DNA of 64,000 bases from a virus (lineage: Duplodnaviria; Caudoviricetes), in IMG/VR virus record IMGVR_UViG_3300031992_000042, positions 32,001 to 96,000 of that record; one strand, written 5' to 3'. The position numbers and the translations under genes are program-made. The notes under the pieces were generated by a model. That model searched no databases and was not told where the DNA came from. It was given only the letters and a program-made list of their open reading frames with translations. Each line of letters opens with the position of its first letter. Position 1 is the stretch's first letter. This document shows positions 275-58,992 of this stretch, one piece after another.

Positions 275-1402
275 TTAAGAATAAGTAGGCTTATAAATAA
301 AAGAGAGTCTTTTAAGACTCGTTCCTTGTGTTGGTGTTATTGTTATTTCGTTCATAGAAACAATACTAGTCTTACATATTCCAGACATTTGTGTATTTTT
401 AGTTAACTCTAAAGTGTGTTTATCAATACATTTATTTATTTTATACCAGTCTCCAAAAGAATCGATTCCAATATATATGTATTTACCTATATACCACTCT
501 TTTTCTCCTTCTTCCTGATATAAAATATTCGTTGCAACAACAAGTGAGTTGTTGTAAGAAACGTATAAGTCGCGTAAAATAGGGAAGGCTGGTTCTAACT
601 CTATAAATCCATGATCATGATAAAGAAATGCAAGTGACTTGTTCCCATCTGAGTCTAAAACAGTCTTTCCGTTGATTCCATCTGTGTAAATATAATCATT
701 ATTATTTGTGTTGAATGCAACATACTTGCAAGATTGTTGCGTTGCATTGTTGTATATTGTAACGCCATTACCCGCTGTGCCAGAAATAATAATATCCACT
801 TTCGCTTTTTCTGTGCCCGGGTTATATAAAATAATAGACTTTTGAGATGAAATATTATTAAAAGTCATGTCAGGCACCATGTATGCTTTATCTAAAATAG
901 CAGTATTTTTCATCATATCAAAATGATGTGGATCAAAAATTTCACTGTAAAAAAGGTGCTTATGTGCAGCATCTTCGTTAGCATCATCTGTAACGTTATA
1001 ACCACGAGCATATGGATAATAAGCTTTCATCGTAATTGTAACAACACCATTCAAATAGTTATATATCTGGCTTATATCTGGATTTGCCGTTACAGTTGCA
1101 TAATAATAACACCATGGTCTGCGCTTAAAAATTAACATTCCTTTTCTACCAACCCTAAATAAATCTAAAGTTTTTGCTAATACGCCTTGGGCTATATGTT
1201 TTTCTTCGTAGTAGCATCTTAATGTAAAAACTTTGGGTTGTTTTGATGCGCCGTATGAGTAACCACCATCATGTCCTTCGAAAGTTTCTTCATGCATGTT
1301 GGATTCAGCCGGAGCATAAACATAGGTATCTTTGTTTTCTGGAGCATATTCTAATCCAATATCAAAAATATCTACTCCACAGAAAGAAAATCCGCCTTTC
1401 AT
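275..1402 (-). CDS. Distal tail protein (Dit-like)
   Basis: Directly follows TMP; FSFCG...G.DG...F.L.C...F.R.P...Y...T..A..PYA and YNPG motifs typical of siphophage Dit proteins. Confidence 0.7.
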   Translation of the reverse strand: MKGGFSFCGVDIFDIGLEYAPENKDTYVYAPAESNMHEETFEGHDGGYSYGASKQPKVFTLRCYYEEKHIAQGVLAKTLDLFRVGRKGMLIFKRRPWCYYYATVTANPDISQIYNYLNGVVTITMKAYYPYARGYNVTDDANEDAAHKHLFYSEIFDPHHFDMMKNTAILDKAYMVPDMTFNNISSQKSIILYNPGTEKAKVDIIISGTAGNGVTIYNNATQQSCKYVAFNTNNNDYIYTDGINGKTVLDSDGNKSLAFLYHDHGFIELEPAFPILRDLYVSYNNSLVVATNILYQEEGEKEWYIGKYIYIGIDSFGDWYKINKCIDKHTLELTKNTQMSGICKTSIVSMNEITITPTQGTSLKRLSFIYKPTYS

Positions 1403-1540: not shown

Positions 1541-4500
1541 TTAACCGAAAGCATAACCTGATAAATTTAATCCGTTGCGCTGTAATTCCTTTGTAAAAGC
1601 TTGTCCAACACGTTTTGCTAAGTTATCTACGTCTGCATCAGAGTTAATTTCGGCTTGGTTAATCGTAATGTTGATATCTCCTACATTTGTGTTGTTGTTA
1701 TACATAGACGGATCTATGTAAGACATGTATGGAGAATTCTTAACATAAGTAAATGTATCAAGCATAGAACGAAGAAGTTTAGTATCTGTTGAATCTAAGA
1801 AAGACTCGGGACGTTGCATAGTTCCATCAACCCAAGCAAGTCCTGTATAATCAATTAATCCACCATTGGCGTGAGGACCTTTTGTTTGACCTGTTATTTC
1901 ATAAAATTCTTGAAGTACTTTATTAGATTCTTCTATTGCTTTATTTGCTCTCTCGATTGTTGCGTTATAAGCTTGATCTATTTTATCGAACTCTGAAAGC
2001 TGATTTGTTTTTCTACTTTCTTCGTTTACTTTATTGTTTATCCCGATAATTTTATCTGCTTCTTCTTGGCTTGTAACAACTATCGGAACAGCAACAGCAC
2101 CATGAACATCTTCTTTCGCAAGTTGTTCGTTAATAGCTTCTAATGCTTCTTTTTCTGTTGCATATTCTTTTGTTTTTTGTCCTGCTCCAACGCCTGTATA
2201 TTTCTTTGCGCCAGGTCCTCCATTATCTCCATTCCCACTGTCTGCAGCAGAAGCGGATGATGTTTCTGTAACAGTAGGAGCAACATAATATAATCCTGAT
2301 AAATCTGCAAGACTTAATCCTTCTCCAGTAGAAAAATCAATTGTAGAAACATTAGAACTATCTAAGCCATAAACATCTGGAGCCTTTCCGTCTATTGTTT
2401 TAATATCGACTTTGAAAATGTTATCTTCAAGTTCGTCAATTTTAGAAACAACATCTGTTAACGTATGAGTGTGTTCATCAAATTCCGCACCCGTTTTAAC
2501 AGAGTTAATATAATTATCGTAGTATTCTCCCCATTGCTGTTCAAGAATCCTCATGGAATTTTTGTCGCCGTTTTCTTCATATAACCGATATGTCCTGTCA
2601 ATAGAACGCATATAATCCATATATGTATCTTTATCGCTAAGAACAGTTGTGATTAATTGGTAGTTAGAATCAATAATATCGTTAGCTTTTTTCCATGTAT
2701 CTTCCCAGCCTTGAATCATTTGCTTTTGAGCGTCTGGTAGACTCTTCATAAAGGCTTCATTTTCTTTGCTCATAAACTCAAGAATCTTATTGTAGGATTC
2801 TTCGAACGATCCAGAAAGAATTTCGTTCATTTCTGTTGCAAAGTTATTTGCATCACCAAGAATCTCGTTTAAAAGTTCTTCGTTGTATTGAACAAATTTG
2901 TCCATGCCTTCCATTTGATCGTCGATACGTTCAGACTCAGCAGCTACTTCATCTTCGGCAACAGTCCAAGCATTTTCTTTTTCAAGCTCCTCAATTTTAC
3001 GACGAAGTTCTTTTGCGTCTTTAGTACGAGTAGGATCAGCTTCAATTAAAGCTAATTGCTGTCTGTACTCTGCAAGTTCCTCGTCTTTGTCTGCTTGCTC
3101 GGAAGCCTTTTTACGATAATTAAACCGTTCATTAATCAAACTCTTGTATTCTGCAAGGTTTTCTTTTTCTTTTTCTATGTCTTTCTTTTTAAGATTCCAT
3201 TCATCTTGTAAGCGTTTCTTAAGAAGATTGACAATAGTATCTTGCATAGAAACATTAGCAGAAAGAATTTCGCGCTGACGTTTCTTTTCTGCTTCAATTT
3301 CTTTATCGACAGCATCTTCTAACGTCTTACGAACTTGCATAATCTTCTTTTTATTTTCTTCAAGAAGCTTGTTATTTTTATCAATTTGCGTATTCTCTTG
3401 TTCTATTGCTTCTTCATGTTTCTTAATCTGCTCAACAATACGCTTTTCTTGTTCTTGATCATCCTTAAATAATTCTTTTTGCTTTTCAAGTTCGATAATC
3501 TCGTCTTGAAGAACTTTAACTCTGTTTCCACGAAGATTGTTCTCTTCTTCGATCATCGTGTTTACGTTAGTTAATTCACCATTGTTCTGGTAAACACTAG
3601 TTTGATACCCAAGAAGCTTAATATTATGATCATATTCAGAAGCGCCCCAGTCTTGATCCTCAAACAATTTATCTAAAGCAACTTTATTAATTTCACGCTG
3701 TTTCTGAGATTGTTCTAATAAGAATTTCTGATACTCAGATTCAGCTTCGTTAATAGCATCTAAAAGTTGCCGTTGTGTTTCTGGATCAAGTGTTTTGCTA
3801 GCCATACCTTCTTGATAAGTTTTATTTAAAGCGTCAAGTTTTTCTTTAGCTTCGTTTGTTAAACTACCAAGGTTATCCATATATCGACTCATAGCTTCCA
3901 TATAAGCTTCATTATCTTTAAGACTAAGATATTCTTGCGCCTGTTGAGATAATAATTCGTTCACATGTGAAAGTTCACGAGTCTGATCTGAATAATCTTC
4001 GTTTATTTTATCTATGTTACTTTGAGTCAAAGCTTTGTTAAGTTCAATTTGAGACAATTCTGCCTGAGCAACAGCTTCAGAATACTGATATACAGCTGCT
4101 TGGGCTTCATACCATGAAGTAGAACCTTCTTCAAGAGTTTCCATCTGTTTACGAGCAGAGGCTTCAGCTTTCATATTCTCTGCAATAATTGCAGCAGTAC
4201 TCTTTTGCTGTTCACGAATCATGTTTTCGTATTCATTTCTATAACCGCTTGATTGATAGAAATTACCATAAGCAGAAGCAATATTTTGATTATGGTTTGC
4301 TGTTTGAGTATCTTGCTGAAGAATTTTGGCAATTTGAGAAAGTTTTTGCTGATTTAGTTCAAGTTGTTCTTGTACTAATTGATTATCAAGTTCAGCGTTT
4401 TCTTCTTCAAGAGCATATATTTTATCTCTAACTTCTCTCCACTGATCAGAGTCAGCTTCCCATTGCTTAAGCTCATTCTTCCATTCTTCGATTTGAGCAT

Positions 4501-7500
4501 CGTTTTCTGTGCGCTGAGTTTGTATTTCAGACATTTTCTGTTCTGTTAATTGCACATAATCACTAAACCGATCTTGAGCCAATGCTCTTTCAGCATAAGA
4601 ACTGAGCATGTTTTGTTTATGGGTTCCTGATTTATCAGTTTCTTCTTGGGTTTCTTGTACGAACTCAATTCTCTTTGCTTTAGCTTCAGCAATTTCATTA
4701 TTATAATTAGCCAAAGATTCTTTTGCTGCGTTAATCTTTTCTGTAAGTTGCATGTACTTATCAGAAGTTTTATCTAATCCATTTTGCTGCTCTTCCATTT
4801 TTGCGATGTTTTCTGTTTGCGCAGCTCTCATCTTTTCAATAACAGCTACTTCGTTATCTATAGATGAAACAAATGCATCTCTATTATTTAATCTATTAGC
4901 GGTCGCTTGTTCAATTTGCGTCATCTTACGCTCATGTTCAAGCTCTTTCATCTTAAATTCTATTTCTTTAAGAAGTTTCGTTAACGGATCTACTCCACCA
5001 CCACTAGATTTTTTAGTATAACTAGTTTTACCTGTCATCGCTACAGCAACTTCATTAGCTAAAGCTAGTTGTTGAAGCTTTGATTTATCCATATTTATTA
5101 AATTTGCAAAAGCTTCACCGTATGTTTTATATCCTCCGCTTGCAATAACAGATTGCGCTTTAACAGTATCTCCACCTGCAGCAGCAACAGCAACAGAAGC
5201 AACTAATGGATTTTCTTTGCAATATGTATTCCATTGTTCTACTACTTTTGCTTGATCAGATTTTAAATTCGATGTATCAATAGTTAAATCAGTATTAAAC
5301 TTAACTTTAGATCTATCACTTTCCGGCATTATTTCATACAATTTATCTAAAGTATCTGTTAAAATTTTCTTTGCGTTTTTAAGCTCTTTTTTATCTACTA
5401 ATTTTTCTATATTGCCAGAACCTGTATCATATCCTGCAAGACCAAACAAGATAGGGAAGTTAACTTTGATATAATCATCTTTTACAACTTTGTTCAGAAT
5501 AGACTCAATATTACTCCACTTATCTTTAAATTCTTGTTCTAATCCTTCTGTAGCACTAGACAGATCAATAGTTCCGTCTTCTTTGAATATTATTTTTGAA
5601 TAATCAATTTTTGCACCAGACGATTCTACAAGAGCAACAAGTTCATTCTGAATATTTTGTACATTCTTTTTTTCTTGCGCTGCCGCAAGGGCTGACACTT
5701 GTTCTTTTGTAAGATTGTCAAGATCAGCTTTCTTTAAACCTGTCGCAGATAAGAAATATGATCTATCGTCGCCTTTTATTTGTTTGCCTGCTTTATCCTT
5801 AACTTTGTTTAACGCAACAAGTTCATTATATTGTTGGCTAAGCGTAGCATCTAACTCAACCATTGCAAGTTCAGTTTCGATACCGCCTTTGCCAAGGTCA
5901 ACAAGTATTTCTTTAAAATCTTTTGATACTTCTGTATATTTCAACATTTCATCTAAGCGTTCGCTATCAAAAGTTTTAAAGAACTCATCAAGTGCTTTTT
6001 GAGCAGATGTTAAATCATTATTTGAAAATGCTTGTAATGCATCTTGAAGCTCAGAGTAATTATTAGCAAGAATAGACCATAAAGTATAAGTTCCACTTTC
6101 TGTATCTTTCGTTGCAGCAAGCATCGAAGCTCCAATTTGATCTATTTTTGATTTATCAAACTTACCAAGATCATTTACGTTTTCACCAAATAAACGACTT
6201 AATAATGAACGATTAAGATCGTATTTGTATTTACCACCAGATATCTGAGCATTATCATATAGTTCAAGTAAATCAGGAGCGGCTTCATTCAAACCAACTC
6301 TGGTGGCATTCCAATATTCAGCCATTATAGCAGGATCAAGACTATGCCTTTTTGCAATTTCATTTAATGCGTCAGCGTAGCTGCGTTGTTTGCTGTGCCT
6401 TCCCGTAGAATCGTAATATATATCATACTCTGAATTTACAATTTTATTAATTTCATCCTGATATTGTTGTATCCAACTTGCAGCTCTAGCAGTTCGTGTC
6501 TGTTTTTCGTAATCTTCTAATCCTTGTTCGTAATAGTCTCCGGCTTGAGTTGTACGTTGTCCATTAATTTCTGCACTAACAACATGACCTTCTGCATCAA
6601 CTATTAGATTGGTCAAAGAACCAATTAATGAGTCTATTGAGTCATATAATTCAGGCTGTTCTGCTAATACTTTTGCTCTTAACTGATCTGCCCAATTAGC
6701 ATCGCTAAGATTAATACTGAACGATTTGGCAAACTCTTCAATCATTTTGCCTGTTTTATCGTTTAACATTTTTTGAAGATCCTGCTTGCCTTTGTCGGAC
6801 TTAATAAGATCTTTTATATCTTTATCCTCAAGACCTAAAATAGACGCTAAAGCATTACGATCCTCAGCTGTAGATACTCCAGCATTAAGAGCAGCTTGAG
6901 CATTTGCTAAACTCTTTTGTTGTTGAATGTACGGGTTTATCATACCCATACGTTCAGTTAAAGAACCTTCTGTCCAAGCGATATAATTCTGAAGTAATTT
7001 AGAAGCGTTTTTATCTTCTGAAAATTTAAAATTATATTTGGTAGTTTCTTCTTCTAAATTCCTATTAAAATTCTCAATAATGTTGAGCTGCTCTTGATTA
7101 GCTGCTTCACCAGCTAATCTAGCTGTAATATATTTTTCGATATCTGAATATCCATATGCTTTTAAAATTTCTGGAGATTTTTGCAATGTTCTCAAGTCTT
7201 TGTCAGACATTGTTTGCAGCTCGGATAAATGTGCTAATTGCTGTGTTTTAGTTAAACCTTCTTGTCCGCTTATTAGATTTGAAATTATTTCTTGCATATA
7301 AGCTGATTCAAATCTATTAAGGTTATCTTTTCCACCTCTAAAATACTTGTTAGCAATATTAGCACCTGCAATCTCAGAAACTAATGCTATTTCATCTTCG
7401 CCCATTACTTGTTCTAAACGATCTATCCAGCCAGATTCTTTTATAAATTGATCTCTAGTTGTTGCAAATGGATGTGCTGCGTTCCATTGCTGAATAGCCT

Positions 7501-10500
7501 CTGGCGTGTCTTTTGCGTAACCAAGATCTTTTTCACGCTGTTCTTTTATTTTATTTTGATAATTTTGATAATCTATGTCTATAGCTTTTTGTTGTAAGTC
7601 ATAAGATAAGTAATATCCATCTTCTAATTTATCTATTGCTTTACTTAACTTATCGCCTTTCTCTACATTAGACAAATTTCTTTGGTTGTACTCGCCAGAA
7701 GTTGATAATAATGCGTCGATATATTGTTGATACAATTCATCGCCGTTTAAAATTTTTCCAGAAGTTTCGTCACGTTGTATTCTTAGTGCTAATTTAGCAA
7801 AATCTTCACTTTGGTTAAGAATTTCCCAGTTACCAATATCTTCTTTAACTACATAATCATATAAACTTTGTAAATCGTTTAGACCGTTATCTAGAATCAT
7901 TTCATACATACGGGTAGCAATAAGAGGAAGTTGGTTCTTACTTTCCCACGTATTATATGTTGACTGTGCTTGTGCTCTAAAATGATCTTTGTATGCAGAA
8001 AAATCAGGTTTAATACTTTGTTCTGGTGCTTCCAAATCTTCAATAAAGTTTACAAGATCATCTGTTGTATTATTCATAAAATCAAAGAAATTACCTGTAA
8101 ACTTAATACCAGCAGAATATAATTTATTATTCAGCTTATTGATTGCTTTCTTTTGATCTTCTTCGGATATACCTTCTGAACTACGATATTCAGCTTCTAT
8201 ATCATTGTATGCTTTTTCAAACTTGGTAATCCTATCGTTGTATGTGTCGATTTGTTTTTCAGCTTGTTCTGACGTTAAATATTGACCAGTTTTATTATCG
8301 TAATAATATCCGTTTTGAATATAATCTAAATTTGCACTTTCAAATTTCTTTGCTTTTTCGTTTTTGTTATATCCTATTTCTTTTAAACGGTTTCTTGCGC
8401 TTTCAGCAATAGAATCAATAGTATAATTATCTTGTGACAAACTAAGTGCATCAGAAATATAACTAAAGAAATCCCCACCATTTTCAAGATATCTATTTGT
8501 TAGATCTTCAGCTAAAGCTTCGATTTCATTTTCATCTAAAGGCAAAGCCATATCGGATAGATATTGTATATAATTTTCCTTAGCAACTGTCTGCCGCTTT
8601 ACAGTTGGTGTATACGTATGCGACCAATAATCTTGCATTAACGTATATAATGCATCTGTTGCACTACCAGAAGCAAAATCAGTATGCCAACCTCCATTAT
8701 TCCAACTGTTAATAAACGCATTTTTCAGATTTTCATCACTTACGTTATAATCTCTTTTAATTTTTTCGAAGGCGTCAGAACTACTAATTTCATTATATAA
8801 ATTAAGTAATTGTCCTTGGACATACGTTGGTGCACCTTTGCCTTCCCTCAGCAAAGCGTTCATCGTTTCAGTATTATATTCGCCTGCAAACAATGTTTGC
8901 AACGCCTGACTACCTAGATTTGCTTCGTTTTCTTCATCTTCTCTAACGGCTTTATTTATCTCATCTTCGATTAATTTATTAGTTTTATTTCTATTACGAA
9001 TCATCTCACGAACTCTTGAAAGGTCATTCTTATCGCTCGCTTGCTGAATAATGTTTTCTGCATTCTGCCTTCTTTGTTCGTTTGTCTGTTTATTTACGGT
9101 ATCGAGATCTCCAGATTCAACAGTAATCGATAGGTTACGAAGAAGCCTATCGTATTCTTTTTCTTCTTCTTCTGATCTGTTGTCTCCCTTATTAAATAAA
9201 GTTCTAGCTTTTTCGACTTCTTCGTTTCTTGAATTATATCTATTGTTAATATTATCAATTATCTCTTGATATTGCTCTTCTGAAGACTTTTGGTTTCCAA
9301 TAGCAGATACAATGGCAGCAATGCCTAATCCGGCGGCTGCGACTCCAGCGCCAACTAAAGATCCAGACTTTAACCCTCCCATTATCATCAAAGAAGGTAA
9401 AATGCCCGCTAAGGTAACGCCAAGTCCACCTAAAGAATTATTTGCTTTATCTATTCCTTCTATAAAATTAGTGAGGAATCCTAATCCGCCCGTCAACGCA
9501 CCGCTATCTGTCATATCATGGACCAGTCCGTCCCATGTGTTTCTTAAATCTGTTAACGATGCATTTAAGGATTTTGTATAGATCTCATACTTTCTGTCTG
9601 TTATTCCTTCAGATTCTCCTGCTAATTGTAAATATTCACCAACTTTACCTTCTGACATACCAGACATAATAGCGGCAAAGTTAGAATACTGTCTTGTGCC
9701 AGCTATTGCGTTAGCAAATTGCTGTTGTTTAGCATCAGATAAGCTCTCCCATTTTTGAGATAACGCGAACAATGTATCAAACGAACTACGTTTATTTCCG
9801 TATTCGTCGTACATTCTTATGCCTTCTTCTTCAAGAAGCTTTGCAACAGCAGAACCACTTACAGCATTACCATTTTCGTCGTAGATAAGTTCGTTTGTTC
9901 CGATCTTATTCATACGTCCAAAAATAGTATTTAATGTACGACCTGCTACATTACCACCTATTTGAGTAGTAGATGTGATAGCAGTTAACATAGCTGAAAG
10001 CTGTGCAAAAGTAGTTCCGTCTGCGGCAGCAGCTGCACCAGCCTTTTCAATGCCTTTTTCGATTTCTGCGGCATTTGTAGCGGCATTATCGCCCAATGCA
10101 GTAACTATATCTGCGGCTTGTTCTGCCTGAGAAACAAGACCTGTATTCATTGCGACAGTAATAAGCTTTGTTGCGGCATCTACTTTTGTACCGGAAACTT
10201 TAGAGAATTTAGAAATAACACCAAGACGTTCATCTACTTCTTGATCACTTAATCCTTGACGATAAAGTGTAGCAGCGGACTGAGTAATCTCAGCTACTGA
10301 TACTTTCATTTCTTTAGCTTTATCGATTAATGTATCTCCAAGGGTAGAAATTTGTTCATCTGTTTTTAGAGTGATCATCTGAATAGTGTTCATCGACGCA
10401 TCAAACTGTTTTACAAAGTTTGTTGTCTCTGAAATTGCAGACTGGAACAAACGTCTGGTAAACATGTTGGACATATATCCAAACGTTGATTTAAACTCTG

Positions 10501-13500
10501 TTTTAAGAATTTTGGCACCCTGACCAAGAGCAATCATTGCTGGATTAGCTCTTCTTTCAAGCTGGTCTAACCCTTCATTTATCCTATCGTATTCATTTTT
10601 GGAATATTGACCTTCATTATACTGGTTACCAACTTGCTTTCTAAGAGTATTTATCTCTTGTTTTCTTGCGGCTGAAATAACAGATAAAGAATTTTTACTC
10701 TTTAAGCCTTGTTTTATCTGTAATGACTCTAAAGCCAGTCTGCCAGCCGTCTCGTTTTGTGTTGTGTATTCAGCTGCTAAACTTGCTCTAGCATCTTGAG
10801 CATTTGCAATACGTTGGTTAGCGACTTTAATAGCATCTTCGTATTGCTTTTGGTATGCAGAATCAACCAAACCTTTATCAAGACGGTTTTGCATCCACGT
10901 AATACCATTTTGCTGCTTGGATATTCTTTCATCATATTTATTTAGTGTCTCTTTTTGTTTGCTTAAACCAAAACCGTTTAATTCTTTTGTAATATCATCT
11001 TCAAGCTGTTTAGCATCAAGCATTATTCCGTTTGTAAAACTTTTATGCATGTTTTCAGTAACTTTATCTCTTGCTTGTGCTATCTGAGACATCCAAGCCG
11101 AACGTTGATCTTCTAAATCTTTTGTTCCTGTAAAAGCTGCATCAGATGCAAGTTCTTCTTCAAGAGCGTTTAAGGGTTGTAAATTTTCAAAAGTACGATA
11201 TTGTAAATAATTATATTGACGTTCTGCCAATGTCTTTTCATCATTTAATTTATTCTCTTTTCCTCTTTGCTCTCTCCAAAGTTCGTCCCCATAGGTTCTT
11301 GTGTCTGATAATATCTGGTTAAACCTATTTCCTACTTCTAAAGCATGTTCATATTTACTTAAATCTGCAAGAACTTTTTCTCTTTGTTCTGTTTGCTCTG
11401 CTTTTTTAGGCGTTTGCGGTCCCCATATCGCGTCAGCACTTTCAGACTGGTTTGTAGACGTCCCGCCTTGAATAGGCATACTTGCAGAACCCGAAGCTTT
11501 TGGATTTTCAACATAAACCAAATTGCCAGTATTTTTATCTTCATAAACAATATTGCCTTTTTCATCTCTGATGATATTATTGTTAGCAACAATTGCAGTT
11601 TCTGGTTTTGCAGGTTCTTTCGGTTGTTCTGGTTCTTTAAATGCCTCAGCCTGTTTGCGAAGCTCAACAACTTTTGATACAAGTGTTTGTCCTACAGCAT
11701 CTGTTGCATTTACAAAATTAGTTCTAAAGTCATCGCCATATGTACGAACAAGATCGCTTTCAAGCATACCGAATTGATCTATGGCGTTTCTTGCAGTTCT
11801 AATACCATATCTGGCTTCTTGTGCTTTAGCCCACTGCTCTTTAGTGTCATAGGCTTTATCGCCTAACATGAATTTACCAGTAGTTGGATCTCTATAATCA
11901 TCTGCAGCTAACGTCAATTCAGCAGCAGCAGCATTTATTAAGCCTTGAATATATTGACCTTCATCATTTGTAATATAAGCTCTCTCGCCTGTGCCAAATT
12001 GATGATGAAGCATACGCATCGTCTGCATCAGTTTGATGCGTTCAGGACCAGCATCACCATATCCGAGCTGTTTATCCATTGCTTCATATATAGCATCCAT
12101 TTGAGTGGGATCAACATTGCCTGTGCGATAAAGCTGGTTTGCTTGAGCAATAGCCATCATATGGTTTGACATATATCTAGAAGGCAAGTTAATTTCATCG
12201 ATGCCCATATCTCTAAGGGCTCTTAAATTGATATATTCTCCATTGGATGCTTTATATATATCTGGATGACTCGCATCTATATACGTACCTTCACGAGTTT
12301 TTACAGCGTTTTTACGATCTGGGGATACGATCATGTCTTCGTCAAACTTAAACAGATCTGTACGCTTTTCTGAGAATTTAGTATATTCTTTACCTAAACC
12401 TAAAGCAGCCCAAACAGGATCATCTTTTTCTAAAGTATAAGTTTGTGCTTTTTTAGGAGTAGAACCAATATCATATATACCTGCCATTCTCTGAGCCGCA
12501 TATACAAGCGCTTGGTTTTCTGGTCTTGAATAGTCGACCTGCATTATTCTGATACCAGAAGAACCTGTACCCATTGGCATAGTCGCATACAAATTGCGTT
12601 CTGCTTGAAGTCTATTTTGAACAGACCAGCTCTTTAATTGTTCTGGCGTATATACAATATCTTCACCTTTAACATCCGAGTCTTTGTATGCACCCATTCG
12701 TTTTAAAGAAGCTTGTACCGCATCGGCAAGTTCTTTATCGTAAATTGCTTTTACTTGGTCTGCATCGTAGTCCATGCCTTGAAGAATTCGTCTATCTTTT
12801 TCAGAAACATACATTCCTGTAGAAGTTGATATGCCAAATCCTTTATAAATAGGTTCTGCGTCAGCTGCCAAATTCTGCGCATAGTACATATTGCCGTATC
12901 CAGTAGGAGAGCGAACAACCGCTACATTGGCTTGATCTTTTCTGTTAAAGTCAAGCACTTTACCTTGCGGTAAAATGATCATATCTCGAATATCTTGGTC
13001 GGATAATCGAGCGTTTGCTTCTTTGTCTAAATATGAGCGAGCTTTCGCAATAGACGCATCTGGAACAGTCCCATCTTTAGCCAACAATATCGTCGCTAAA
13101 GGGCTTGCTGCAGCGCGAAGGTTTGCAATTTTGTCATCGTTGTCAAAGTTGATATATTTACCAGCAATTAAGTCGTTGTAAAGAGAAGCTCGCATATTAT
13201 CAATTCGTGAACGAGCTTCTGTTGACGCTAATAACTGTGAATTGCCACCGAATAAAGGATTAACCTTTCGACTTAGATAGTCTTCTTTATTGCCGAATAC
13301 ATATTTCAACTGACCTTCTTCGGTATCAAGTTCTTGCATTCGCCTCATTGCCATTTCAATTTGATGTTGTCTTAATTCAGGAGAAAACATCATAAAAGAC
13401 GACATCTGAGTACCTAAGTTATCTGAAGCAACTTGATCTAAGTCATAGTCAGCATGATAACTCATAGGATGACGCTGTAATAATGCGGTGAACCTTCTAC

Positions 13501-15589
13501 TTGCGATATCGCCAGATACATAATTACCATTTTCGTCTTTAAGAACACCTTGGTTCTTAATAACATCCATCGGTATATATCCTTGATAATCTGCGATATT
13601 AAATAATTCGCCGTTCGGACCAGGAGCCATTAAACGACCTTGTTCGTCAAGTAAACCAGTTTTCTTGCCAAACGCTCTTAAGTCGTTCCCTTCAAAAACA
13701 AACGCAGAACCTTTAAGACCGACTCCGCCTCTGAATTGACCAGAATGTGGCATAACTGAACTTGCAAAGAAAGCACCGCCGTCTCCGGGGGACACTCCGC
13801 CAAGTTGATCTTTTAACCGACTTGTATCAACTACAGCAAAACGTTTACCGTCTATATTTATCCCAAGGTCTGATGTATTCGTCCATGCTTTGTTAAGCAT
13901 TTCAAGATGCTTACCATACTTCTGTGCAGTAATACCATCTTTACCGCCAACGCCGTTTTGAATTAAACGATCTATTTCTGCGTCGTCGAAACCGCGCCAA
14001 TATGTACCACGAATACCACGAACAGCTTCATCAGGATGGTTTCTAATCCATTCCGCTTCTTGCTCGTTAACTCTATTAAAAGCATTTTGCTCAATCATAC
14101 GAACAATAGTGTCCTGACCTGTGCCATGAATACTCTGTGCGATAAACTTGGCATTGCCTAATTGAGCGCCATTTGGATTAAAAAGGTTTTCTAAAAACTT
14201 TTGATGTTCTGGATTTTTCGCATCATATCCAGCTAATGATACAATACGAATTGTATCGCTCACGTCTTGGTTGTTTTTCCATTTACCGCCACCCAAAAGT
14301 CTTGTATTATGACTTTCAGAGATCATAACACTCCTAGGATCGCCTAATGCAACTTTATCGCCTGTAAATGGAGAATATTTAGATACTACAAGCTGATCTT
14401 GAATACGTTTGCCTTCTCCTTGAAGTTTACTCCACGTGTTAGGATTGGCAGAATTTGTCCATGCACGAGTATCTTCCATACCTTCAATGTCTTGCATGGC
14501 AAGCATTGCTCTGCCTGACGTAGAGGATGTTAAACGTTGCATTAACGTTCTTTTATCTGATCCTGTTGCTTTATATGCATCAATAGCATTGCCCTTATAA
14601 CCAGAAACTCTAACTAAAAGATCATCATATAAAGCTTTTCTAAATCCTTCCCATTCAGATCTTGAAATTTCGTCTTTAGTTTCAAGTACGCCACGTTCAT
14701 CTCTTCTGCTAATACCAGAGGCTATTGCAGCTTTTACTGCAACAGAATTGTTTTTTAGAATATTATCAAGCTGTTTTCTATAAGCAGTGTCGAGCACCAT
14801 CGACTGATATGACTTATCAAACGTCTGAAAGTCCCGGCCCTGAGATCTGAAAGTTGCCTTGAAAGACTCGGGAAATAAGTCTTCTGGTTTACCTGTATAT
14901 AACCCAGCACTTACATTTTGTCTAACATGACCGTATCTTGCCTTCTGGTAAATTTTATTCATGTTAGCTGGAGTAATAGACGGAATAAGATACTCAATCA
15001 TCCTATCAAGGTTGAATTCAGCATCTGTATTAGATAAGCCATGTTTGTTTAATAAACCTCTTATTGCAGGGTCCATTTTTGTTGGGTTAGTTCCGCCTGT
15101 TAATTCTTTTGCAATTTGTCCTACGTCTTTTGAGAGAATTGAACTGCCTGCTTTACTTAAGCTACTTATTCTACTCCGAACGATAGAAGTTAATTGTGGA
15201 GCAATAGTATCAAACTGATGTTGCACAGCAGATGGAAGATCTCCAAACCATTGTTTTGCTATTTGCGCACTATAAGATGTTGTACCAAGCTGAACATCTC
15301 TTAAAGCATTAAGCTCTAAAATATTATTATTTGCACCACGCTCAAGCGCAACACGCTCAGCATCGGAAGAATATGTTTTATTTTGAAGCTTCTCTAATTT
15401 GTCATTTAATGCGTCAACAACAGTAACTGAACGTTCAAATGAATTATCAAGAATTTTACTAACATTTGGCATTTCCGAAATACTTGTTTTTAATCCATCA
15501 ATGCCTTGTTTAATGGTACTAATTTGTTGTTTCGCATCTCCAAAGTCCATGTTAGCAGATATATTAAGTTTAATTTCATTCCACGGCAT
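1541..15589 (-). CDS. Giant tape measure protein (4682 aa) with a putative N-terminal two-barrel RNA polymerase domain
   Basis: TP901-type TMP core (FDASMNTIQMIT...QSAATLYRQG...GGNVAGRTLNTIFGR), long coiled coils, C-terminal HANGG...WVDG..RPE motif; N-terminal DG-x15-R-x-KG, VRSP and DYDAD motifs. Confidence 0.85.
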   Translation of the reverse strand: MPWNEIKLNISANMDFGDAKQQISTIKQGIDGLKTSISEMPNVSKILDNSFERSVTVVDALNDKLEKLQNKTYSSDAERVALERGANNNILELNALRDVQLGTTSYSAQIAKQWFGDLPSAVQHQFDTIAPQLTSIVRSRISSLSKAGSSILSKDVGQIAKELTGGTNPTKMDPAIRGLLNKHGLSNTDAEFNLDRMIEYLIPSITPANMNKIYQKARYGHVRQNVSAGLYTGKPEDLFPESFKATFRSQGRDFQTFDKSYQSMVLDTAYRKQLDNILKNNSVAVKAAIASGISRRDERGVLETKDEISRSEWEGFRKALYDDLLVRVSGYKGNAIDAYKATGSDKRTLMQRLTSSTSGRAMLAMQDIEGMEDTRAWTNSANPNTWSKLQGEGKRIQDQLVVSKYSPFTGDKVALGDPRSVMISESHNTRLLGGGKWKNNQDVSDTIRIVSLAGYDAKNPEHQKFLENLFNPNGAQLGNAKFIAQSIHGTGQDTIVRMIEQNAFNRVNEQEAEWIRNHPDEAVRGIRGTYWRGFDDAEIDRLIQNGVGGKDGITAQKYGKHLEMLNKAWTNTSDLGINIDGKRFAVVDTSRLKDQLGGVSPGDGGAFFASSVMPHSGQFRGGVGLKGSAFVFEGNDLRAFGKKTGLLDEQGRLMAPGPNGELFNIADYQGYIPMDVIKNQGVLKDENGNYVSGDIASRRFTALLQRHPMSYHADYDLDQVASDNLGTQMSSFMMFSPELRQHQIEMAMRRMQELDTEEGQLKYVFGNKEDYLSRKVNPLFGGNSQLLASTEARSRIDNMRASLYNDLIAGKYINFDNDDKIANLRAAASPLATILLAKDGTVPDASIAKARSYLDKEANARLSDQDIRDMIILPQGKVLDFNRKDQANVAVVRSPTGYGNMYYAQNLAADAEPIYKGFGISTSTGMYVSEKDRRILQGMDYDADQVKAIYDKELADAVQASLKRMGAYKDSDVKGEDIVYTPEQLKSWSVQNRLQAERNLYATMPMGTGSSGIRIMQVDYSRPENQALVYAAQRMAGIYDIGSTPKKAQTYTLEKDDPVWAALGLGKEYTKFSEKRTDLFKFDEDMIVSPDRKNAVKTREGTYIDASHPDIYKASNGEYINLRALRDMGIDEINLPSRYMSNHMMAIAQANQLYRTGNVDPTQMDAIYEAMDKQLGYGDAGPERIKLMQTMRMLHHQFGTGERAYITNDEGQYIQGLINAAAAELTLAADDYRDPTTGKFMLGDKAYDTKEQWAKAQEARYGIRTARNAIDQFGMLESDLVRTYGDDFRTNFVNATDAVGQTLVSKVVELRKQAEAFKEPEQPKEPAKPETAIVANNNIIRDEKGNIVYEDKNTGNLVYVENPKASGSASMPIQGGTSTNQSESADAIWGPQTPKKAEQTEQREKVLADLSKYEHALEVGNRFNQILSDTRTYGDELWREQRGKENKLNDEKTLAERQYNYLQYRTFENLQPLNALEEELASDAAFTGTKDLEDQRSAWMSQIAQARDKVTENMHKSFTNGIMLDAKQLEDDITKELNGFGLSKQKETLNKYDERISKQQNGITWMQNRLDKGLVDSAYQKQYEDAIKVANQRIANAQDARASLAAEYTTQNETAGRLALESLQIKQGLKSKNSLSVISAARKQEINTLRKQVGNQYNEGQYSKNEYDRINEGLDQLERRANPAMIALGQGAKILKTEFKSTFGYMSNMFTRRLFQSAISETTNFVKQFDASMNTIQMITLKTDEQISTLGDTLIDKAKEMKVSVAEITQSAATLYRQGLSDQEVDERLGVISKFSKVSGTKVDAATKLITVAMNTGLVSQAEQAADIVTALGDNAATNAAEIEKGIEKAGAAAAADGTTFAQLSAMLTAITSTTQIGGNVAGRTLNTIFGRMNKIGTNELIYDENGNAVSGSAVAKLLEEEGIRMYDEYGNKRSSFDTLFALSQKWESLSDAKQQQFANAIAGTRQYSNFAAIMSGMSEGKVGEYLQLAGESEGITDRKYEIYTKSLNASLTDLRNTWDGLVHDMTDSGALTGGLGFLTNFIEGIDKANNSLGGLGVTLAGILPSLMIMGGLKSGSLVGAGVAAAGLGIAAIVSAIGNQKSSEEQYQEIIDNINNRYNSRNEEVEKARTLFNKGDNRSEEEEKEYDRLLRNLSITVESGDLDTVNKQTNEQRRQNAENIIQQASDKNDLSRVREMIRNRNKTNKLIEDEINKAVREDEENEANLGSQALQTLFAGEYNTETMNALLREGKGAPTYVQGQLLNLYNEISSSDAFEKIKRDYNVSDENLKNAFINSWNNGGWHTDFASGSATDALYTLMQDYWSHTYTPTVKRQTVAKENYIQYLSDMALPLDENEIEALAEDLTNRYLENGGDFFSYISDALSLSQDNYTIDSIAESARNRLKEIGYNKNEKAKKFESANLDYIQNGYYYDNKTGQYLTSEQAEKQIDTYNDRITKFEKAYNDIEAEYRSSEGISEEDQKKAINKLNNKLYSAGIKFTGNFFDFMNNTTDDLVNFIEDLEAPEQSIKPDFSAYKDHFRAQAQSTYNTWESKNQLPLIATRMYEMILDNGLNDLQSLYDYVVKEDIGNWEILNQSEDFAKLALRIQRDETSGKILNGDELYQQYIDALLSTSGEYNQRNLSNVEKGDKLSKAIDKLEDGYYLSYDLQQKAIDIDYQNYQNKIKEQREKDLGYAKDTPEAIQQWNAAHPFATTRDQFIKESGWIDRLEQVMGEDEIALVSEIAGANIANKYFRGGKDNLNRFESAYMQEIISNLISGQEGLTKTQQLAHLSELQTMSDKDLRTLQKSPEILKAYGYSDIEKYITARLAGEAANQEQLNIIENFNRNLEEETTKYNFKFSEDKNASKLLQNYIAWTEGSLTERMGMINPYIQQQKSLANAQAALNAGVSTAEDRNALASILGLEDKDIKDLIKSDKGKQDLQKMLNDKTGKMIEEFAKSFSINLSDANWADQLRAKVLAEQPELYDSIDSLIGSLTNLIVDAEGHVVSAEINGQRTTQAGDYYEQGLEDYEKQTRTARAASWIQQYQDEINKIVNSEYDIYYDSTGRHSKQRSYADALNEIAKRHSLDPAIMAEYWNATRVGLNEAAPDLLELYDNAQISGGKYKYDLNRSLLSRLFGENVNDLGKFDKSKIDQIGASMLAATKDTESGTYTLWSILANNYSELQDALQAFSNNDLTSAQKALDEFFKTFDSERLDEMLKYTEVSKDFKEILVDLGKGGIETELAMVELDATLSQQYNELVALNKVKDKAGKQIKGDDRSYFLSATGLKKADLDNLTKEQVSALAAAQEKKNVQNIQNELVALVESSGAKIDYSKIIFKEDGTIDLSSATEGLEQEFKDKWSNIESILNKVVKDDYIKVNFPILFGLAGYDTGSGNIEKLVDKKELKNAKKILTDTLDKLYEIMPESDRSKVKFNTDLTIDTSNLKSDQAKVVEQWNTYCKENPLVASVAVAAAGGDTVKAQSVIASGGYKTYGEAFANLINMDKSKLQQLALANEVAVAMTGKTSYTKKSSGGGVDPLTKLLKEIEFKMKELEHERKMTQIEQATANRLNNRDAFVSSIDNEVAVIEKMRAAQTENIAKMEEQQNGLDKTSDKYMQLTEKINAAKESLANYNNEIAEAKAKRIEFVQETQEETDKSGTHKQNMLSSYAERALAQDRFSDYVQLTEQKMSEIQTQRTENDAQIEEWKNELKQWEADSDQWREVRDKIYALEEENAELDNQLVQEQLELNQQKLSQIAKILQQDTQTANHNQNIASAYGNFYQSSGYRNEYENMIREQQKSTAAIIAENMKAEASARKQMETLEEGSTSWYEAQAAVYQYSEAVAQAELSQIELNKALTQSNIDKINEDYSDQTRELSHVNELLSQQAQEYLSLKDNEAYMEAMSRYMDNLGSLTNEAKEKLDALNKTYQEGMASKTLDPETQRQLLDAINEAESEYQKFLLEQSQKQREINKVALDKLFEDQDWGASEYDHNIKLLGYQTSVYQNNGELTNVNTMIEEENNLRGNRVKVLQDEIIELEKQKELFKDDQEQEKRIVEQIKKHEEAIEQENTQIDKNNKLLEENKKKIMQVRKTLEDAVDKEIEAEKKRQREILSANVSMQDTIVNLLKKRLQDEWNLKKKDIEKEKENLAEYKSLINERFNYRKKASEQADKDEELAEYRQQLALIEADPTRTKDAKELRRKIEELEKENAWTVAEDEVAAESERIDDQMEGMDKFVQYNEELLNEILGDANNFATEMNEILSGSFEESYNKILEFMSKENEAFMKSLPDAQKQMIQGWEDTWKKANDIIDSNYQLITTVLSDKDTYMDYMRSIDRTYRLYEENGDKNSMRILEQQWGEYYDNYINSVKTGAEFDEHTHTLTDVVSKIDELEDNIFKVDIKTIDGKAPDVYGLDSSNVSTIDFSTGEGLSLADLSGLYYVAPTVTETSSASAADSGNGDNGGPGAKKYTGVGAGQKTKEYATEKEALEAINEQLAKEDVHGAVAVPIVVTSQEEADKIIGINNKVNEESRKTNQLSEFDKIDQAYNATIERANKAIEESNKVLQEFYEITGQTKGPHANGGLIDYTGLAWVDGTMQRPESFLDSTDTKLLRSMLDTFTYVKNSPYMSYIDPSMYNNNTNVGDINITINQAEINSDADVDNLAKRVGQAFTKELQRNGLNLSGYAFG

Positions 15590-18477: not shown

Positions 18478-19636
18478 TTAAGCATTCTTGCCAACAAAGG
18501 CGATAGAATAGGTAGCTTCGTCAGGGCGCTTGGCATCCATAGCAGCCAGCGTGAAGCCGAAGGTATTCGCAGTCTTGTAGGACGCATCGAAACCCGGAGC
18601 CTGCGTAACACGAGCATTGTAAACACGAACCAGAACATAACCGATAATAGAGCTATCTGTGCAGTTTTCGCCAGAACCGTAAACCGGATATTTCATGATC
18701 GCTTCACCACGAGCGGAGCTGCGGTTGTCAATGTTTGCTTCTTGAGCTTCTACAGAATAGAAATAAGAAACAGCAACATCGTTTTCAACGTCGCCTGCAA
18801 AGAAGATAATCTTAGCGACTTCGCCAGATGTATCAACCTTGAACTTTCCTTTAACAGGTGTTTGCGCTGTTTCTTCAAGCCCAGCAATAGAAACAGAACC
18901 TGTAATTGGAATCTTTGCTAAATCAACTTCGTTCGTGCCGTCAACGGTCAGAATTTCAGTAATTGGCATCTGATAATGTTCGTTCGTTTCAAAGTTGGTA
19001 GCATTCGCCATAACAAACAGGTCAGCTTCAAACTTACCTGAAGTAATGGACATCTCAACATTTTGTTCAACTGAGGGCGCTAACCTCAGCCCGCTTATTA
19101 AGCTGCTGCACATTGCTGTGCAGTTCAGACTATCTCTTCACCCTATTAAATAGGGGCTCTTCTTTTCGACCCGCTTGGGCCTACACCTTTCGGTTAGTCG
19201 TTACACATTCAAACAGAAATCCAATGGAGATTATTGGTTTTATTAAGTTTTCCTCTGATACATTTTATAATCGCACTTGCATCTGCCCCGGTTTGACGTT
19301 GAGCTTCTGCTGCAGATTCATATTCAACACCAGTTTCAATAAATAATCATATAACCACCTATTTCTGTTCTTAGCACGGGATTGTCCCAATGGGAGTTTC
19401 CCCGTTTAGAAGAGTAATTTATAGTCCGCCCAAGAGATTGTTTAGGTGGACTGACCGGGTAAATAAGCCACAGGATACAGAGACCAACCAGCGTTAATTT
19501 CTGTATAGTTAACCTGAGGCGTTACGGTCGCATTAGTGAGTTCATCGAAATAGAACACGCGACCATCGCAGCGTTTAAACCACAGCCGCGGCACGTCGGC
19601 AACGTATCCGTTAAACTCTTTAACATAAGTAGCCAT
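18478..19636 (-). CDS. Major tail (tube) protein, 257 aa, spliced: exon 1 19636-19444, exon 2 19058-18478
   Basis: Two ORF halves join in frame after intron removal (...PGQST-F-EMSITS...); highly expressed codon usage; position before the chaperones and TMP. Confidence 0.75.
19059..19443 (-). mobile_element. Group I intron in the tail tube gene, containing a homing endonuclease remnant
   Basis: Minus strand P AAACGGGGAAACTC, Q AATCCCGTGCTAAG, R TGTAACGACTA, S AAGAGATAGTCT; exon ends in U paired with G of the IGS (GTCCACCT / GGGCGGAC); intron ends in G. Confidence 0.85.
19209..19350 (-). pseudogene. Deleted homing endonuclease remnant (MIIY* start fused out of frame to a NUMOD1/IENR1-like tail)
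   Basis: AGGTGG RBS, ATG ATT ATT TAT TGA, overlapping frame IETGVEYESAAEAQRQTGADASAIIKCIRGK...HW. Confidence 0.65.
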
Positions 19637-38459: not shown

Positions 38460-38747
38460 TAAGACACTCCTCGGCATGGTGAGGAGACTATTTAAGTAAG
38501 ATTAAGGAGTCAGACTTGATGGAAGTCTGGCTCCTATTTTTTACTTAACCCTGTTTTTTGGTATAGCCTGTCTCTTTTGTTTCTGCTGTCGCAACATGAC
38601 AGTAGACATAAGAAAGATAGTTCGGTACCTAAATTTGAAGACTTTCTAAGATGGCTATAAGGGGAGGAGAATTTTTGGGGGCATATATTTTCTGTGCCGC
38701 AGATTTTTTGTAAGCCTCTTACATTTTTTAAGATAGGAGAACAATCG

Positions 38748-48690: not shown

Positions 48691-49063
48691 TATGGGTTAC
48701 TATACAGATTATACACTTACGGTCCGCAAAATAAAAAACGAAGAAGAGTTTAATAAACTGAATGAATATCTAAAAGAAAAAGAGATTATTAATTATGCTA
48801 TCCAAGAAGGCGACTACGATCCGAACCATCAAGAAGCGGTTTTCTATCCTTATGACAGTGTCAAATGGTATGATCATTCAGAAGCAATGGTAGGGATTGC
48901 AGAAAAATTTCCTAAAATGTATTTCGAACTTGAAGGCGCAGGAGAAGTATCTGGGGACTTCTGGAAAGAATATTATCACGATATGGACATAGAATATTGT
49001 CGTGGTGAAGTTGTTTACGAACAGCCAAAGAAAGTAGCTTGGCAAGACTTGCTTGTGATATAA
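48683..49063 (+). CDS. Hypothetical phage protein (MGYYT.Y...KWY...GE..GD.W)
   Basis: ORF with RBS. Confidence 0.6.
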   Translation: MSNMGYYTDYTLTVRKIKNEEEFNKLNEYLKEKEIINYAIQEGDYDPNHQEAVFYPYDSVKWYDHSEAMVGIAEKFPKMYFELEGAGEVSGDFWKEYYHDMDIEYCRGEVVYEQPKKVAWQDLLVI

Positions 49064-49263: not shown

Positions 49264-49272
49264 CTTTTATAT

Positions 49273-49867: not shown

Positions 49868-49881
49868 CAGCCTTTATATAT

Positions 49882-51071: not shown

Positions 51072-51072
51072 C

Positions 51073-58710: not shown

Positions 58711-58992
58711 AATAAAATGAAAGCACCATATAAAGACCTGCATCATATGACGATACTGGTGCTGCAGCAAGTTCACTCGTATTCTTTAAACAAACAGGAT
58801 GTAAGAATGCCCCATGTTGATTTAGAGACCACCAGATACGAGACTTATTGCTGTTGGAGCTGTTTATTATTACGGGTTGGGTTCGTATACCGACATAAAC
58901 AGCTCCTATTTTTTATTACAGAATTAGTAAATCTATCCTTTTGGATTAAATATACGTATCTTAAAAACAACAAAATGAAAGGGGGCCGCGAG

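What the first reader, a model, noticed from the sequence alone, without database searches (positions are those of the whole stretch)
11700..14300. Virion RNA polymerase apparently fused into the tape measure protein
Seen: the N-terminal ~1300 aa of the 4682-aa TMP are globular and carry, in order, the motifs of the two free RNAPs in this window. D603-G...R-x-KG (GDGGAFFASSVMPHSGQFRGGVGLKG versus TDGCGMMLPEISDSNFMIRIPYGKG) has a D-to-R spacing of 17 in both. VVR893SP matches VLRSP and VTRSP. D940YDAD lies 47 aa later, versus DYDGD at 40 aa and DWDGD at 43 aa. Knowledge: two-barrel RNAPs use a DxDxD triad, crAss-like virion RNAPs tolerate a non-Gly fourth residue, and a tail-tape-fused virion RNAP is known from Thermus phage P23-45. 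Inference: the polymerase is injected with the tape measure and transcribes the early region, a strategy I do not know of from Bacillota phages.
Basis: partly seen in the sequence, partly recalled or inferred. Interest (0 to 1): 0.88.

Follow-up and report, generated by a model that had tools for sequence, protein, structure and literature searches.

The report
Tape measure protein carrying RNA polymerase
The giant tail-length "ruler" protein of this uncultured SPbeta-like phage begins with a complete, conserved cell-type (two-barrel) RNA polymerase related to YonO, so the phage probably carries its own transcription enzyme into the host with its tail, an arrangement shown experimentally so far only in Thermus phage P23-45.

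Summary
The 4682-aa tape measure protein (TMP; window 1541-15589, minus strand) carries D603G…R620…K626G, VVR893SP and D940YDAD exactly as described.

These motifs are not chance.
- A profile of residues 380-1320 aligns over 440 columns with the YonO family (hhalign E 6e-8), motif to motif.
- An AlphaFold model (pLDDT 84.7) matches the single-chain two-barrel RNA polymerases: RDR2 and QDE-1 (Z 15-17), P74-26 gp62 (Z 14), P23-45 gp96 (Z 11).
- The Asp triad is kept in 41 of 41 aligned family representatives, all giant TMPs of 3.7-6.8 thousand residues.

The genome is a 105.7-kb SPbeta-like phage contig with two further free YonO-type polymerases.

The domain is not detectably related in sequence to P23-45 gp96, so the fusion is probably independent of that one. 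I found no cultured phage and no paper with it. This scan has already noted the same architecture in another genome (e1-5767643).

Delivery with the tail and early-gene transcription are inferred by analogy and were not tested.

Verdict: a new variant of a known kind, and well supported as a polymerase domain.

The parts
1541..15589 (-). Whole gene: 4682-aa tape measure protein with an N-terminal polymerase module
   Evidence: Single ORF with no internal stop. RBS AAAGGAG lies 8 nt upstream of the ATG. Forty full-length relatives of 3699-6777 aa share the same layout.
14405..15589 (-). N-terminal extension, aa 1-395: conserved, mostly alpha-helical, function unknown
   Evidence: AF2 model md1bcb3b14b85 has pLDDT 77.1 and pTM 0.49. 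Structure search gives only generic helical-bundle matches, Z 7.6 or lower. No profile similarity to YonO or to the gp96 N-terminus. G292, G330 and R352 are invariant in 29 sequences.
12098..14401 (-). Two-barrel RNA polymerase core, aa ~397-1164
   Evidence: AF2 model m5643b67fc769 has pLDDT 84.7 and pTM 0.78. VIA-align gives Z 17.3 to RDR2 and Z 15.1 to QDE-1 over model residues 18-785. ESM Atlas gives TM 0.57-0.60 to phage RdRP clusters. hhalign to the YonO family gives E 6.2e-8.
13709..13783 (-). First-barrel motif D603-G604...Q618-x-R620...K626-G627 (beta-like barrel, basic residues)
   Evidence: Translation checked. Aligned to the YonO invariants D369, G370, R386 and K391. G604, Q618, R620 and K626 are kept in 43/43, D603 in 40/43.
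12905..12913 (-). R893-S-P motif preceding the catalytic barrel
   Evidence: Translation checked. Aligned to the YonO-family invariants R612 and P614. R is kept in 39/41 and P in 41/41.
12758..12772 (-). D940-Y-D942-A-D944: putative Mg-binding triad of the beta-prime-like barrel
   Evidence: Translation checked. All three Asp are kept in 41/41. The fourth residue is A in 21, G in 18 and S in 2. The surrounding model residues 440-575 match isolated DPBB domains and RNAP largest subunits.
11630..12097 (-). C-terminal helical part of the polymerase module, aa 1165-1320
   Evidence: Conserved in the family profile up to about position 940. Helical in the model.
11390..11629 (-). Low-complexity Pro/Glu/Lys-rich linker, aa 1321-1400; start of the poorly conserved segment that runs to ~aa 1650
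   Evidence: Visible in the sequence. No majority residue in the family consensus after the module.
9386..10405 (-). Tape measure core, aa 1728-2068 (PF10145 / TIGR01760)
   Evidence: Pfam PF10145 E 1.8e-24 at aa 1757-1964. TIGR01760 E 3.5e-26 at aa 1728-2068. PHROG tape measure families. 27% identity to SPbeta YomI and the Perkons TMP.
9290..9442 (-). Hydrophobic Gly/Ala-rich segment, aa ~2050-2100
   Evidence: Kyte-Doolittle 19-residue windows above 1.5 occur only here.
275..1402 (-). Distal tail protein (Dit), immediately downstream of the TMP gene
   Evidence: phrog_33 E 2.9e-20 and Pfam Sipho_tail E 6e-6.
32991..35414 (+). Free YonO-like polymerase 1 (807 aa, DYDGD)
   Evidence: Pfam RdRP E 4.8e-10 and phrog_8308 E 2.4e-74.
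58717..61830 (+). Free YonO orthologue (DWDGD); its likely true start is the ATG at 58993, which follows an AAAGGGGG RBS
   Evidence: phrog_8308 E 1.3e-180. 34.7% identity to SPbeta YonO. Start region read.

Best explanation
What it is. The first ~1320 residues of the tape measure protein form an added module:
- a helical extension (aa 1-395);
- a complete single-chain two-barrel RNA polymerase of the YonO / QDE-1 clade (aa ~397-1164);
- a helical tail (to aa 1320).
A flexible linker joins this module to an SPbeta-type tape measure.

How it most likely works (inferred).
- The whole protein is built into the tail as the ruler.
- In siphophages the TMP C-terminus sits at the tail tip (general knowledge). 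The polymerase end would therefore lie head-proximal, next to the leading DNA end.
- At infection the TMP is expelled ahead of the DNA. The polymerase reaches the cytoplasmic side.
- There it transcribes the first phage genes as the DNA enters, using D940, D942 and D944 to hold catalytic Mg.
- The two free YonO-type polymerases would then take over later gene classes.

Shown here: homology, fold, active-site conservation, and a constant fusion to the TMP.
Inferred: catalytic activity, presence in the virion, delivery into the cell, and which genes are transcribed.
For: Homology:
- hhalign of the 8-sequence domain profile against a 6-sequence YonO-family profile gives probability 94.7% and E 6.2e-8 over 440 columns. 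It puts DG/R/KG, RSP and DxDxD on their YonO counterparts.
- Relative P0074 hits both the domain profile (E 6e-15) and phrog_8308 (E 1.6e-8).

Fold (AF2 model pLDDT 84.7, pTM 0.78):
- Foldseek against PDB: QDE-1 E 1.4e-11, then RDR2, crAss phi14:2 gp66 and P23-45 gp96.
- VIA-align: Z 17.3 with 513 aa aligned (RDR2), 15.1 with 541 aa (QDE-1), 14.0 (P74 gp62), 11.2 (gp96).
- A Foldseek-independent search of 48,161 chains gives the same top five. DPBB-only proteins match the catalytic barrel.
- BFVD and the ESM Atlas top hits are phage 'RNA-dependent RNA polymerase' proteins, with TM 0.57-0.60.

Selection on the active site:
- The Asp triad is kept in 41/41. R620, K626 and Q618 are kept in 43/43, in relatives whose overall identity to the window protein (measured over aa 1-420) falls to about 19-27%.

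Fusion is constant:
- All 40 full-length representatives are 3699-6777 aa, and in those listed with coordinates the domain lies at about residues 360-1480.
- The only apparently free copy, P0076, is a piece of a giant ORF cut by five in-frame TAG codons.

It is a real TMP in a tail operon. In SPbeta YomI and the Perkons TMP the tape measure core starts at aa ~310-370, against ~1650 here. That fits an added N-terminal module of ~1300 aa.

Precedent: P23-45 gp96 is an active TMP-fused virion polymerase that transcribes pre-early genes (PMC10770324).
Against: - No Pfam, PHROG, NCBIfam or PDB-sequence model detects a polymerase in this protein. Pairwise BLAST to the free polymerases is at best E 0.009. 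Homology therefore rests on profile and structure comparison.
- This protein has Ala, not Gly, as the fourth residue of the motif. Three relatives have N at D603.
- A folded ~100-kDa domain should not fit a siphophage tail-tube lumen (general knowledge). It must travel unfolded, sit elsewhere, or be cleaved off, and nothing here decides which.
- There is no cultured member, no virion proteomics and no transcript data.
- No promoter has been assigned to this polymerase.
- SPbeta itself manages without such a domain, and this phage already has two free polymerases, so the need for a third is not self-evident.
Confidence: 0.7

Rival explanations
1. The domain is an active polymerase but is not delivered. 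It is cleaved from the TMP at the low-complexity linker during tail assembly. It then works only inside the producing cell, or merely helps TMP folding or assembly before being discarded.
For: A poorly conserved Pro/Glu/Lys-rich linker follows the module. TMPs of some phages are proteolytically processed (general knowledge). A folded domain of this size should not fit in the tail lumen.
Against: The fusion is kept in every one of 40 full-length representatives over deep divergence. That is hard to explain if co-translation had no purpose. The phage already has two free polymerases for intracellular work. In P23-45 the fused form is the virion enzyme (PMC10770324).
Confidence: 0.12
2. The domain keeps the polymerase fold but serves another nucleic-acid task at entry. 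It could prime DNA replication, copy RNA (QDE-1-like RNA-dependent synthesis), or act as a motor or anchor that pulls the genome in. It would not express early genes from promoters.
For: The nearest solved structures, QDE-1 and RDR2, are RNA-dependent or dual-template enzymes (PMC9508822 abstract). No promoter was identified for it.
Against: The closest sequence relatives are YonO-type enzymes. YonO is a processive DNA-dependent transcriptase of phage genes (PMC5467207). The only characterised TMP-fused relative is promoter-directed (PMC10770324).
Confidence: 0.1
3. The domain is a catalytically dead relic, used only as a structural plug or length-independent cap of the tape measure.
For: No activity data exist. 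The fourth motif residue is not the canonical Gly in half of the family.
Against: The three Asp, the Arg, the Lys and the Gln of the two barrels are invariant or nearly so. Meanwhile the rest of the family diverges to about 19-27% identity, measured over aa 1-420. crAss-like virion polymerases are active with DFDxD (bioRxiv 10.1101/2020.03.07.982082).
Confidence: 0.05

Closest known systems
Thermus phage P23-45 gp96 (also P74-26, G20c, TSP4): tape-measure-fused virion RNA polymerase (Chaban et al. 2024, PMC10770324; PDB 8h2m, 8h2n)
   Same: A giant TMP (5002 aa against 4682 aa). A two-barrel polymerase sits at the N-terminus behind an extension of ~330-400 residues. The DxDxD motif lies at residue 779 there and 940 here. 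The genome also encodes free polymerase(s). The fold is shared: Z 11.2 over about 355-360 aligned residues.
   Different: No detectable sequence relationship (hhalign probability 1.4%). The domain here is closer to YonO, QDE-1 and gp62/gp64-type enzymes than to gp96. The phage lineage differs: an SPbeta-like head and tail module, a mesophile-like 37% GC genome. No metallopeptidase domain was detected. There are two free polymerases rather than one. gp96-type proteins occur only in 10 Thermus phage records of the phage collection.
Bacillus phage SPbeta YonO (single-chain DNA-dependent RNAP transcribing late genes; Forrest et al. 2017, PMC5467207)
   Same: Same polymerase clade. The profile alignment covers both barrels and all motifs. 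The phage group is the same too: YonB, YomU, YomX, YomW and YomG homologues flank the gene in relatives.
   Different: YonO is a free ~840-aa protein made during infection. The domain here is fused to the tape measure and has diverged beyond the reach of the Pfam and PHROG models. SPbeta's own TMP, YomI (2285 aa), lacks it.
Eukaryotic RNAi polymerases QDE-1 and RDR2 (PDB 2j7n, 7y7t, 7w82)
   Same: These are the best structural matches: Z 15-17 with 513-541 aligned residues, and Foldseek E 1e-11.
   Different: Only 10-12% identity. They are cellular enzymes of RNA silencing with RNA-dependent activity, and have no virion context.
Virion-packaged polymerases of crAss-like phage phi14:2 (gp66, PDB 6vr4) and of N4-like phages
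   Same: Polymerase domains embedded in very large virion proteins that are ejected into the host to start transcription. gp66 is also two-barrel, with a non-Gly DFDxD motif (Foldseek E 7.6e-4).
   Different: Those proteins are capsid or ejection cargo of short-tailed phages, not tape measures. The N4 enzyme is T7-like, not two-barrel.

Membership tests
Two-barrel (double-psi beta-barrel) RNA polymerase superfamily | Two DPBB domains arranged as in the beta/beta-prime active centre | tested here: met
   The AF2 model (pLDDT 84.7) matches single-chain two-barrel RNAPs at Z 11-17 over 350-540 residues. Isolated DPBB domains match model residues 440-575.
Two-barrel (double-psi beta-barrel) RNA polymerase superfamily | DxDxD metal-binding loop in the beta-prime-like barrel | tested here: met
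   D940-Y-D-A-D. All three Asp are kept in 41/41 aligned representatives, and the motif aligns to the YonO DxDGD.
Two-barrel (double-psi beta-barrel) RNA polymerase superfamily | Conserved basic residues in the beta-like barrel | tested here: met
   R620 and K626 are kept in 43/43 and align to the YonO-family invariants R386 and K391.
Two-barrel (double-psi beta-barrel) RNA polymerase superfamily | Template-dependent RNA synthesis | not testable with these tools
   Needs purified protein.
YonO-like / RdRP family (Pfam PF05183, phrog_8308) | Match to the family's own HMM above threshold | tested here: not met
   No PF05183 or phrog_8308 hit for the TMP at E up to 0.1 and 0.001 respectively. Both free polymerases hit.
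YonO-like / RdRP family (Pfam PF05183, phrog_8308) | Profile-level homology across both barrels | tested here: met
   hhalign E 6.2e-8 over 440 columns. Relative P0074 bridges the two profiles. ESM Atlas clusters carrying PF05183 match at TM 0.57.
P23-45 gp96-type TMP-fused virion RNAP | Polymerase domain at the N-terminus of a tape measure protein | tested here: met
   PF10145 / TIGR01760 lie at aa 1728-2068 of the same ORF, and the gene sits between the tail tube and Dit genes.
P23-45 gp96-type TMP-fused virion RNAP | Sequence homology to gp96 | tested here: not met
   hhalign of the domain profile against a three-sequence gp96 profile gives probability 1.4% and a wrong register. tblastn with gp96 finds only Thermus phages.
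P23-45 gp96-type TMP-fused virion RNAP | Presence in virions and transcription of pre-early genes | not testable with these tools
   There is no cultured member.
Phage tail tape measure protein (PF10145 / TIGR01760) | Family HMM match and position in the tail gene order | tested here: met
   PF10145 E 1.8e-24, TIGR01760 E 3.5e-26, six PHROG tape measure families, and Dit immediately downstream.

The most novel reading that the evidence does not exclude
SPbeta-like phages of uncultured Bacillota independently re-invented the tape-measure-fused virion polymerase. They did so by duplicating their own YonO gene and grafting it onto the ruler protein. Together with two free YonO paralogues this gives a three-polymerase cascade (virion, early/middle, late). 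That cascade makes the phage largely independent of host RNA polymerase and couples genome entry to transcription. Fusion of a polymerase to the tape measure would then be a recurrent solution, not a Thermus oddity.
Probability: 0.35. Interest if true: 0.8.

Novelty: new variant of a known kind. Interest (0 to 1): 0.68.

Why it matters
A tape-measure-fused virion RNA polymerase has been demonstrated once, in thermophilic Oshimavirus phages. This finding gives a second lineage that is unrelated to it in sequence.
- It comprises at least 40 divergent giant proteins from metagenomes.
- They sit in phages related to the well-studied Bacillus model SPbeta.
- The polymerase derives from the YonO clade.

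This suggests that delivering a polymerase on the tail ruler is a general strategy. It also offers sequences for biochemistry, since YonO assays already exist. It raises a concrete physical question: how a ~100-kDa enzyme travels with, or through, a tail about 500 nm long. Finally, it would explain why these rulers are far longer than the tail-length rule alone requires.

Tried and rejected
Sequence searches that did not detect a polymerase:
- Pairwise BLASTP of the N-terminal 1400 aa against the two free polymerases gave only one weak segment (E 0.009) around RSP...DxDxD.
- Pfam, PHROG, NCBIfam and a profile search of PDB sequences show no polymerase in the TMP.
- Single-sequence hhalign against SPbeta YonO or against gp96 was insignificant. 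Only family profiles gave signal.

Searches for free-standing or prophage copies:
- The word-based search for free-standing relatives of 517-1647 aa found none.
- P0076 (937 aa) looked free-standing. It is one piece of a 13.6-kb reading frame interrupted only by five in-frame TAG codons.
- P0044 and P0074 lie in frame-shifted or oddly joined contigs and were not used as evidence.
- No relative was found in the phage collection, and none in 185,579 species genomes by pattern scan. One was found in IMG/VR.

Relation to gp96:
- The gp96 family profile against the domain profile, and against the YonO profile, showed no similarity.

Tests that could not be run:
- Whole-record searches of the relatives' contigs for extra polymerases were not possible.
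Environment and expression are therefore untested.

N-terminal extension (aa 1-420):
- Profile comparisons, the ESM Atlas feature search and a structure search gave nothing specific.

Promoters:
- Sigma-70-like promoter matches in 30-40 kb are not enriched (20 found, 18.1 expected). The scan says nothing either way.

Motif alone:
- DxDxD by itself was rejected as evidence, because about 1.8 are expected by chance.
Full report
**The object.** The window is part of a single 105,695-bp contig with 37% GC. Its minus strand from 30 kb down to 0.3 kb carries a head-and-tail module in this order: large terminase, portal, major head protein, a tail tube gene interrupted by a group I intron, the giant ORF 1541-15589, and then Dit. 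The giant ORF is uninterrupted and encodes 4682 aa. A strong ribosome-binding site precedes it. It is a genuine tape measure protein. PF10145 (E 1.8e-24) and TIGR01760 (E 3.5e-26) cover aa 1728-2068. Six PHROG tape measure families hit the same region. That core is 27% identical to SPbeta YomI and to the TMP of Psychrobacillus phage Perkons.

**The observation.** The two free proteins it used for comparison are YonO-type polymerases. DxDxD by itself means little in a protein this long, since about 1.8 are expected and three are seen. The test therefore has to come from relatives, profiles and structure.

**Relatives.**
- A word-indexed search found 19 homologues. A profile search of 1.84 billion representatives found 83 clusters.
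- Forty are full-length proteins of 3699-6777 aa; in those listed with coordinates the domain lies at about residues 360-1480. The rest are fragments from short contigs.
- Seven fetched loci are syntenic. They carry the SPbeta-specific Pfam families YonB, YomU, YomX, YomW and YomG around the gene.
- Across 43 representatives, G604, Q618, R620 and K626 are invariant.
- R893 is kept in 39/41, P895 in 41/41, and D940, D942 and D944 in 41/41.
- The fourth motif residue is Ala (21), Gly (18) or Ser (2).
- Overall identity to the window protein, measured over aa 1-420, falls to about 19-27% in the same set. The active-site residues are therefore under strong constraint.

**Homology.** A profile of aa 380-1320 from eight sequences was compared with a six-sequence YonO-family profile. 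That profile was built from both free polymerases of this genome plus SPbeta, Perkons, Thomasclavelia and Enterocloster phage proteins. The alignment spans 440 columns with probability 94.7% and E 6.2e-8. It superposes DG, R, KG, RSP and DxDxD on the YonO invariants. One relative, P0074, matches both the domain profile and phrog_8308.

**Structure.**
- AlphaFold2 on aa 380-1320 with 20 sequences gave pLDDT 84.7 and pTM 0.78.
- Foldseek against PDB ranks QDE-1 first (E 1.4e-11). RDR2, crAss-like phi14:2 gp66, P74-26 gp62, P23-45-group gp64 and gp96, and cellular beta-prime subunits follow.
- VIA-align gives Z 17.3 (RDR2, 513 residues), 15.1 (QDE-1, 541), 14.0 (gp62) and 11.2 (gp96).
- An exhaustive search independent of Foldseek returns the same five first. 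Isolated DPBB domains align to the barrel that holds DYDAD.
- BFVD and the ESM Atlas return phage proteins annotated as RNA-dependent RNA polymerase, with TM 0.57-0.60 over 609-661 residues.

**Architecture.**
- aa 1-395 is a conserved, mostly helical extension. Its model has pLDDT 77, and only generic helical-bundle matches were found. It shows no similarity to YonO or to the gp96 N-terminus.
- aa ~397-1164 is the polymerase core.
- aa 1165-1320 is a helical tail.
- A Pro/Glu/Lys-rich linker and a poorly conserved stretch follow, up to about aa 1650.
- Next come the tape measure core, a hydrophobic Gly/Ala segment near aa 2050-2100, and about 2350 residues rich in Glu, Lys and Gln.
- In YomI and the Perkons TMP the core begins at aa ~310-370, so about 1300 residues have been added here.
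- At 0.15 nm per residue (a general rule of thumb), the part after the module would measure about 500 nm.

**Is the fusion constant?** Yes, as far as I can see. The only apparently separate copy, P0076, sits in a locus where six consecutive ORFs share one frame. They are separated only by TAG codons, and the last ends in TAA. That phage evidently reads TAG as sense, and its protein has the same layout.

**Relation to the known case.**
- P23-45 gp96 is the one characterised TMP-fused virion polymerase. It transcribes pre-early genes, including the gene for a second, free polymerase. Its authors propose transcription coupled to DNA entry at the TMP pore (PMC10770324).
- The present domain shares that layout and the fold. 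It has no detectable sequence relationship to gp96, and it is closer to YonO.
- gp96-type proteins occur only in Thermus phages in the phage collection.
- That paper's survey table, as held in text (one supplementary file was cut when stored), contains none of the motif variants DYDAD, DFDAD, DFDSD, DLDAD or DYDSD found in this family.
- Full-text searches found no other report.
- I therefore read this as an independent, or at least very old and separate, fusion in the SPbeta-like lineage. It probably arose from a YonO duplicate.
- Independent origin is an inference from relative similarity, not from a tree.

**Mechanism and limits.**
- Delivery and early transcription are inferred from the precedent, the constancy of the fusion and the preserved active site.
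- The main physical objection is that a folded ~100-kDa domain should not pass a tail tube. The same objection applies to gp96 and is unresolved.
- Cleavage at the linker, a non-transcriptional role, or a dead domain are the rivals. The last is unlikely given the conservation.
- This scan's notes record the same architecture in another genome (e1-5767643). I treat that as a lead, not as support.

Noticed in passing
window 36121, 36851, 37849, 44706, 47911, 52486 (all + strand): Six copies of a G+C-rich hairpin whose centre reads GCAAGC. An ATAC-like word and GAA follow 5-15 nt later, with no T-run. The core CGCAAGCG occurs 7 times in the window, all on the + strand, against 1.07 expected. These are candidate phage-polymerase promoters or RNA processing sites in the non-structural region.
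   Followed up: partly
window 38614-38670, 49061-49117, 49118-49174, 58163-58219: A 57-nt repeated element with a GGTACC-centred palindrome, followed by TTGAAG...TATAAG and a Shine-Dalgarno-like GGGGAG. One copy ends just before tRNA-Ser. Another lies upstream of the YonO orthologue. It is probably a regulated promoter/operator.
   Followed up: partly
window 19106-19453 (-) and 49907-50099 (+): Two group I introns by Rfam RF00028 (55.3 and 69.4 bits). The first interrupts the tail tube gene.
   Followed up: partly
window 49178-52249 (+): A cluster of tRNA genes. ARAGORN calls Ser-TGA, Thr-TGT, Gln-TTG and Asn-GTT. Rfam calls one more at 50643-50716.
   Followed up: no
L016:8912-22498: In a 110-kb relative, the giant polymerase-TMP frame is interrupted by five in-frame TAG codons and ends in TAA. 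Its capsid and tube genes are also called short. This suggests TAG is read as sense in that phage's late genes.
   Followed up: partly
window 47106-47697: Five copies of a 26-nt repeat (GGTTATGTTAGGGCAGTCAAGGTTAG-like) at about 100-nt spacing in a stretch without long ORFs. They could be iterons of a replication origin or a small structured-RNA array.
   Followed up: no
window 58717-58995: The ORF of the YonO orthologue is open from 58717. Similarity to YonO starts near residue 96, and an AAAGGGGG site precedes the ATG at 58993. The true product is therefore probably about 945 aa.
   Followed up: partly
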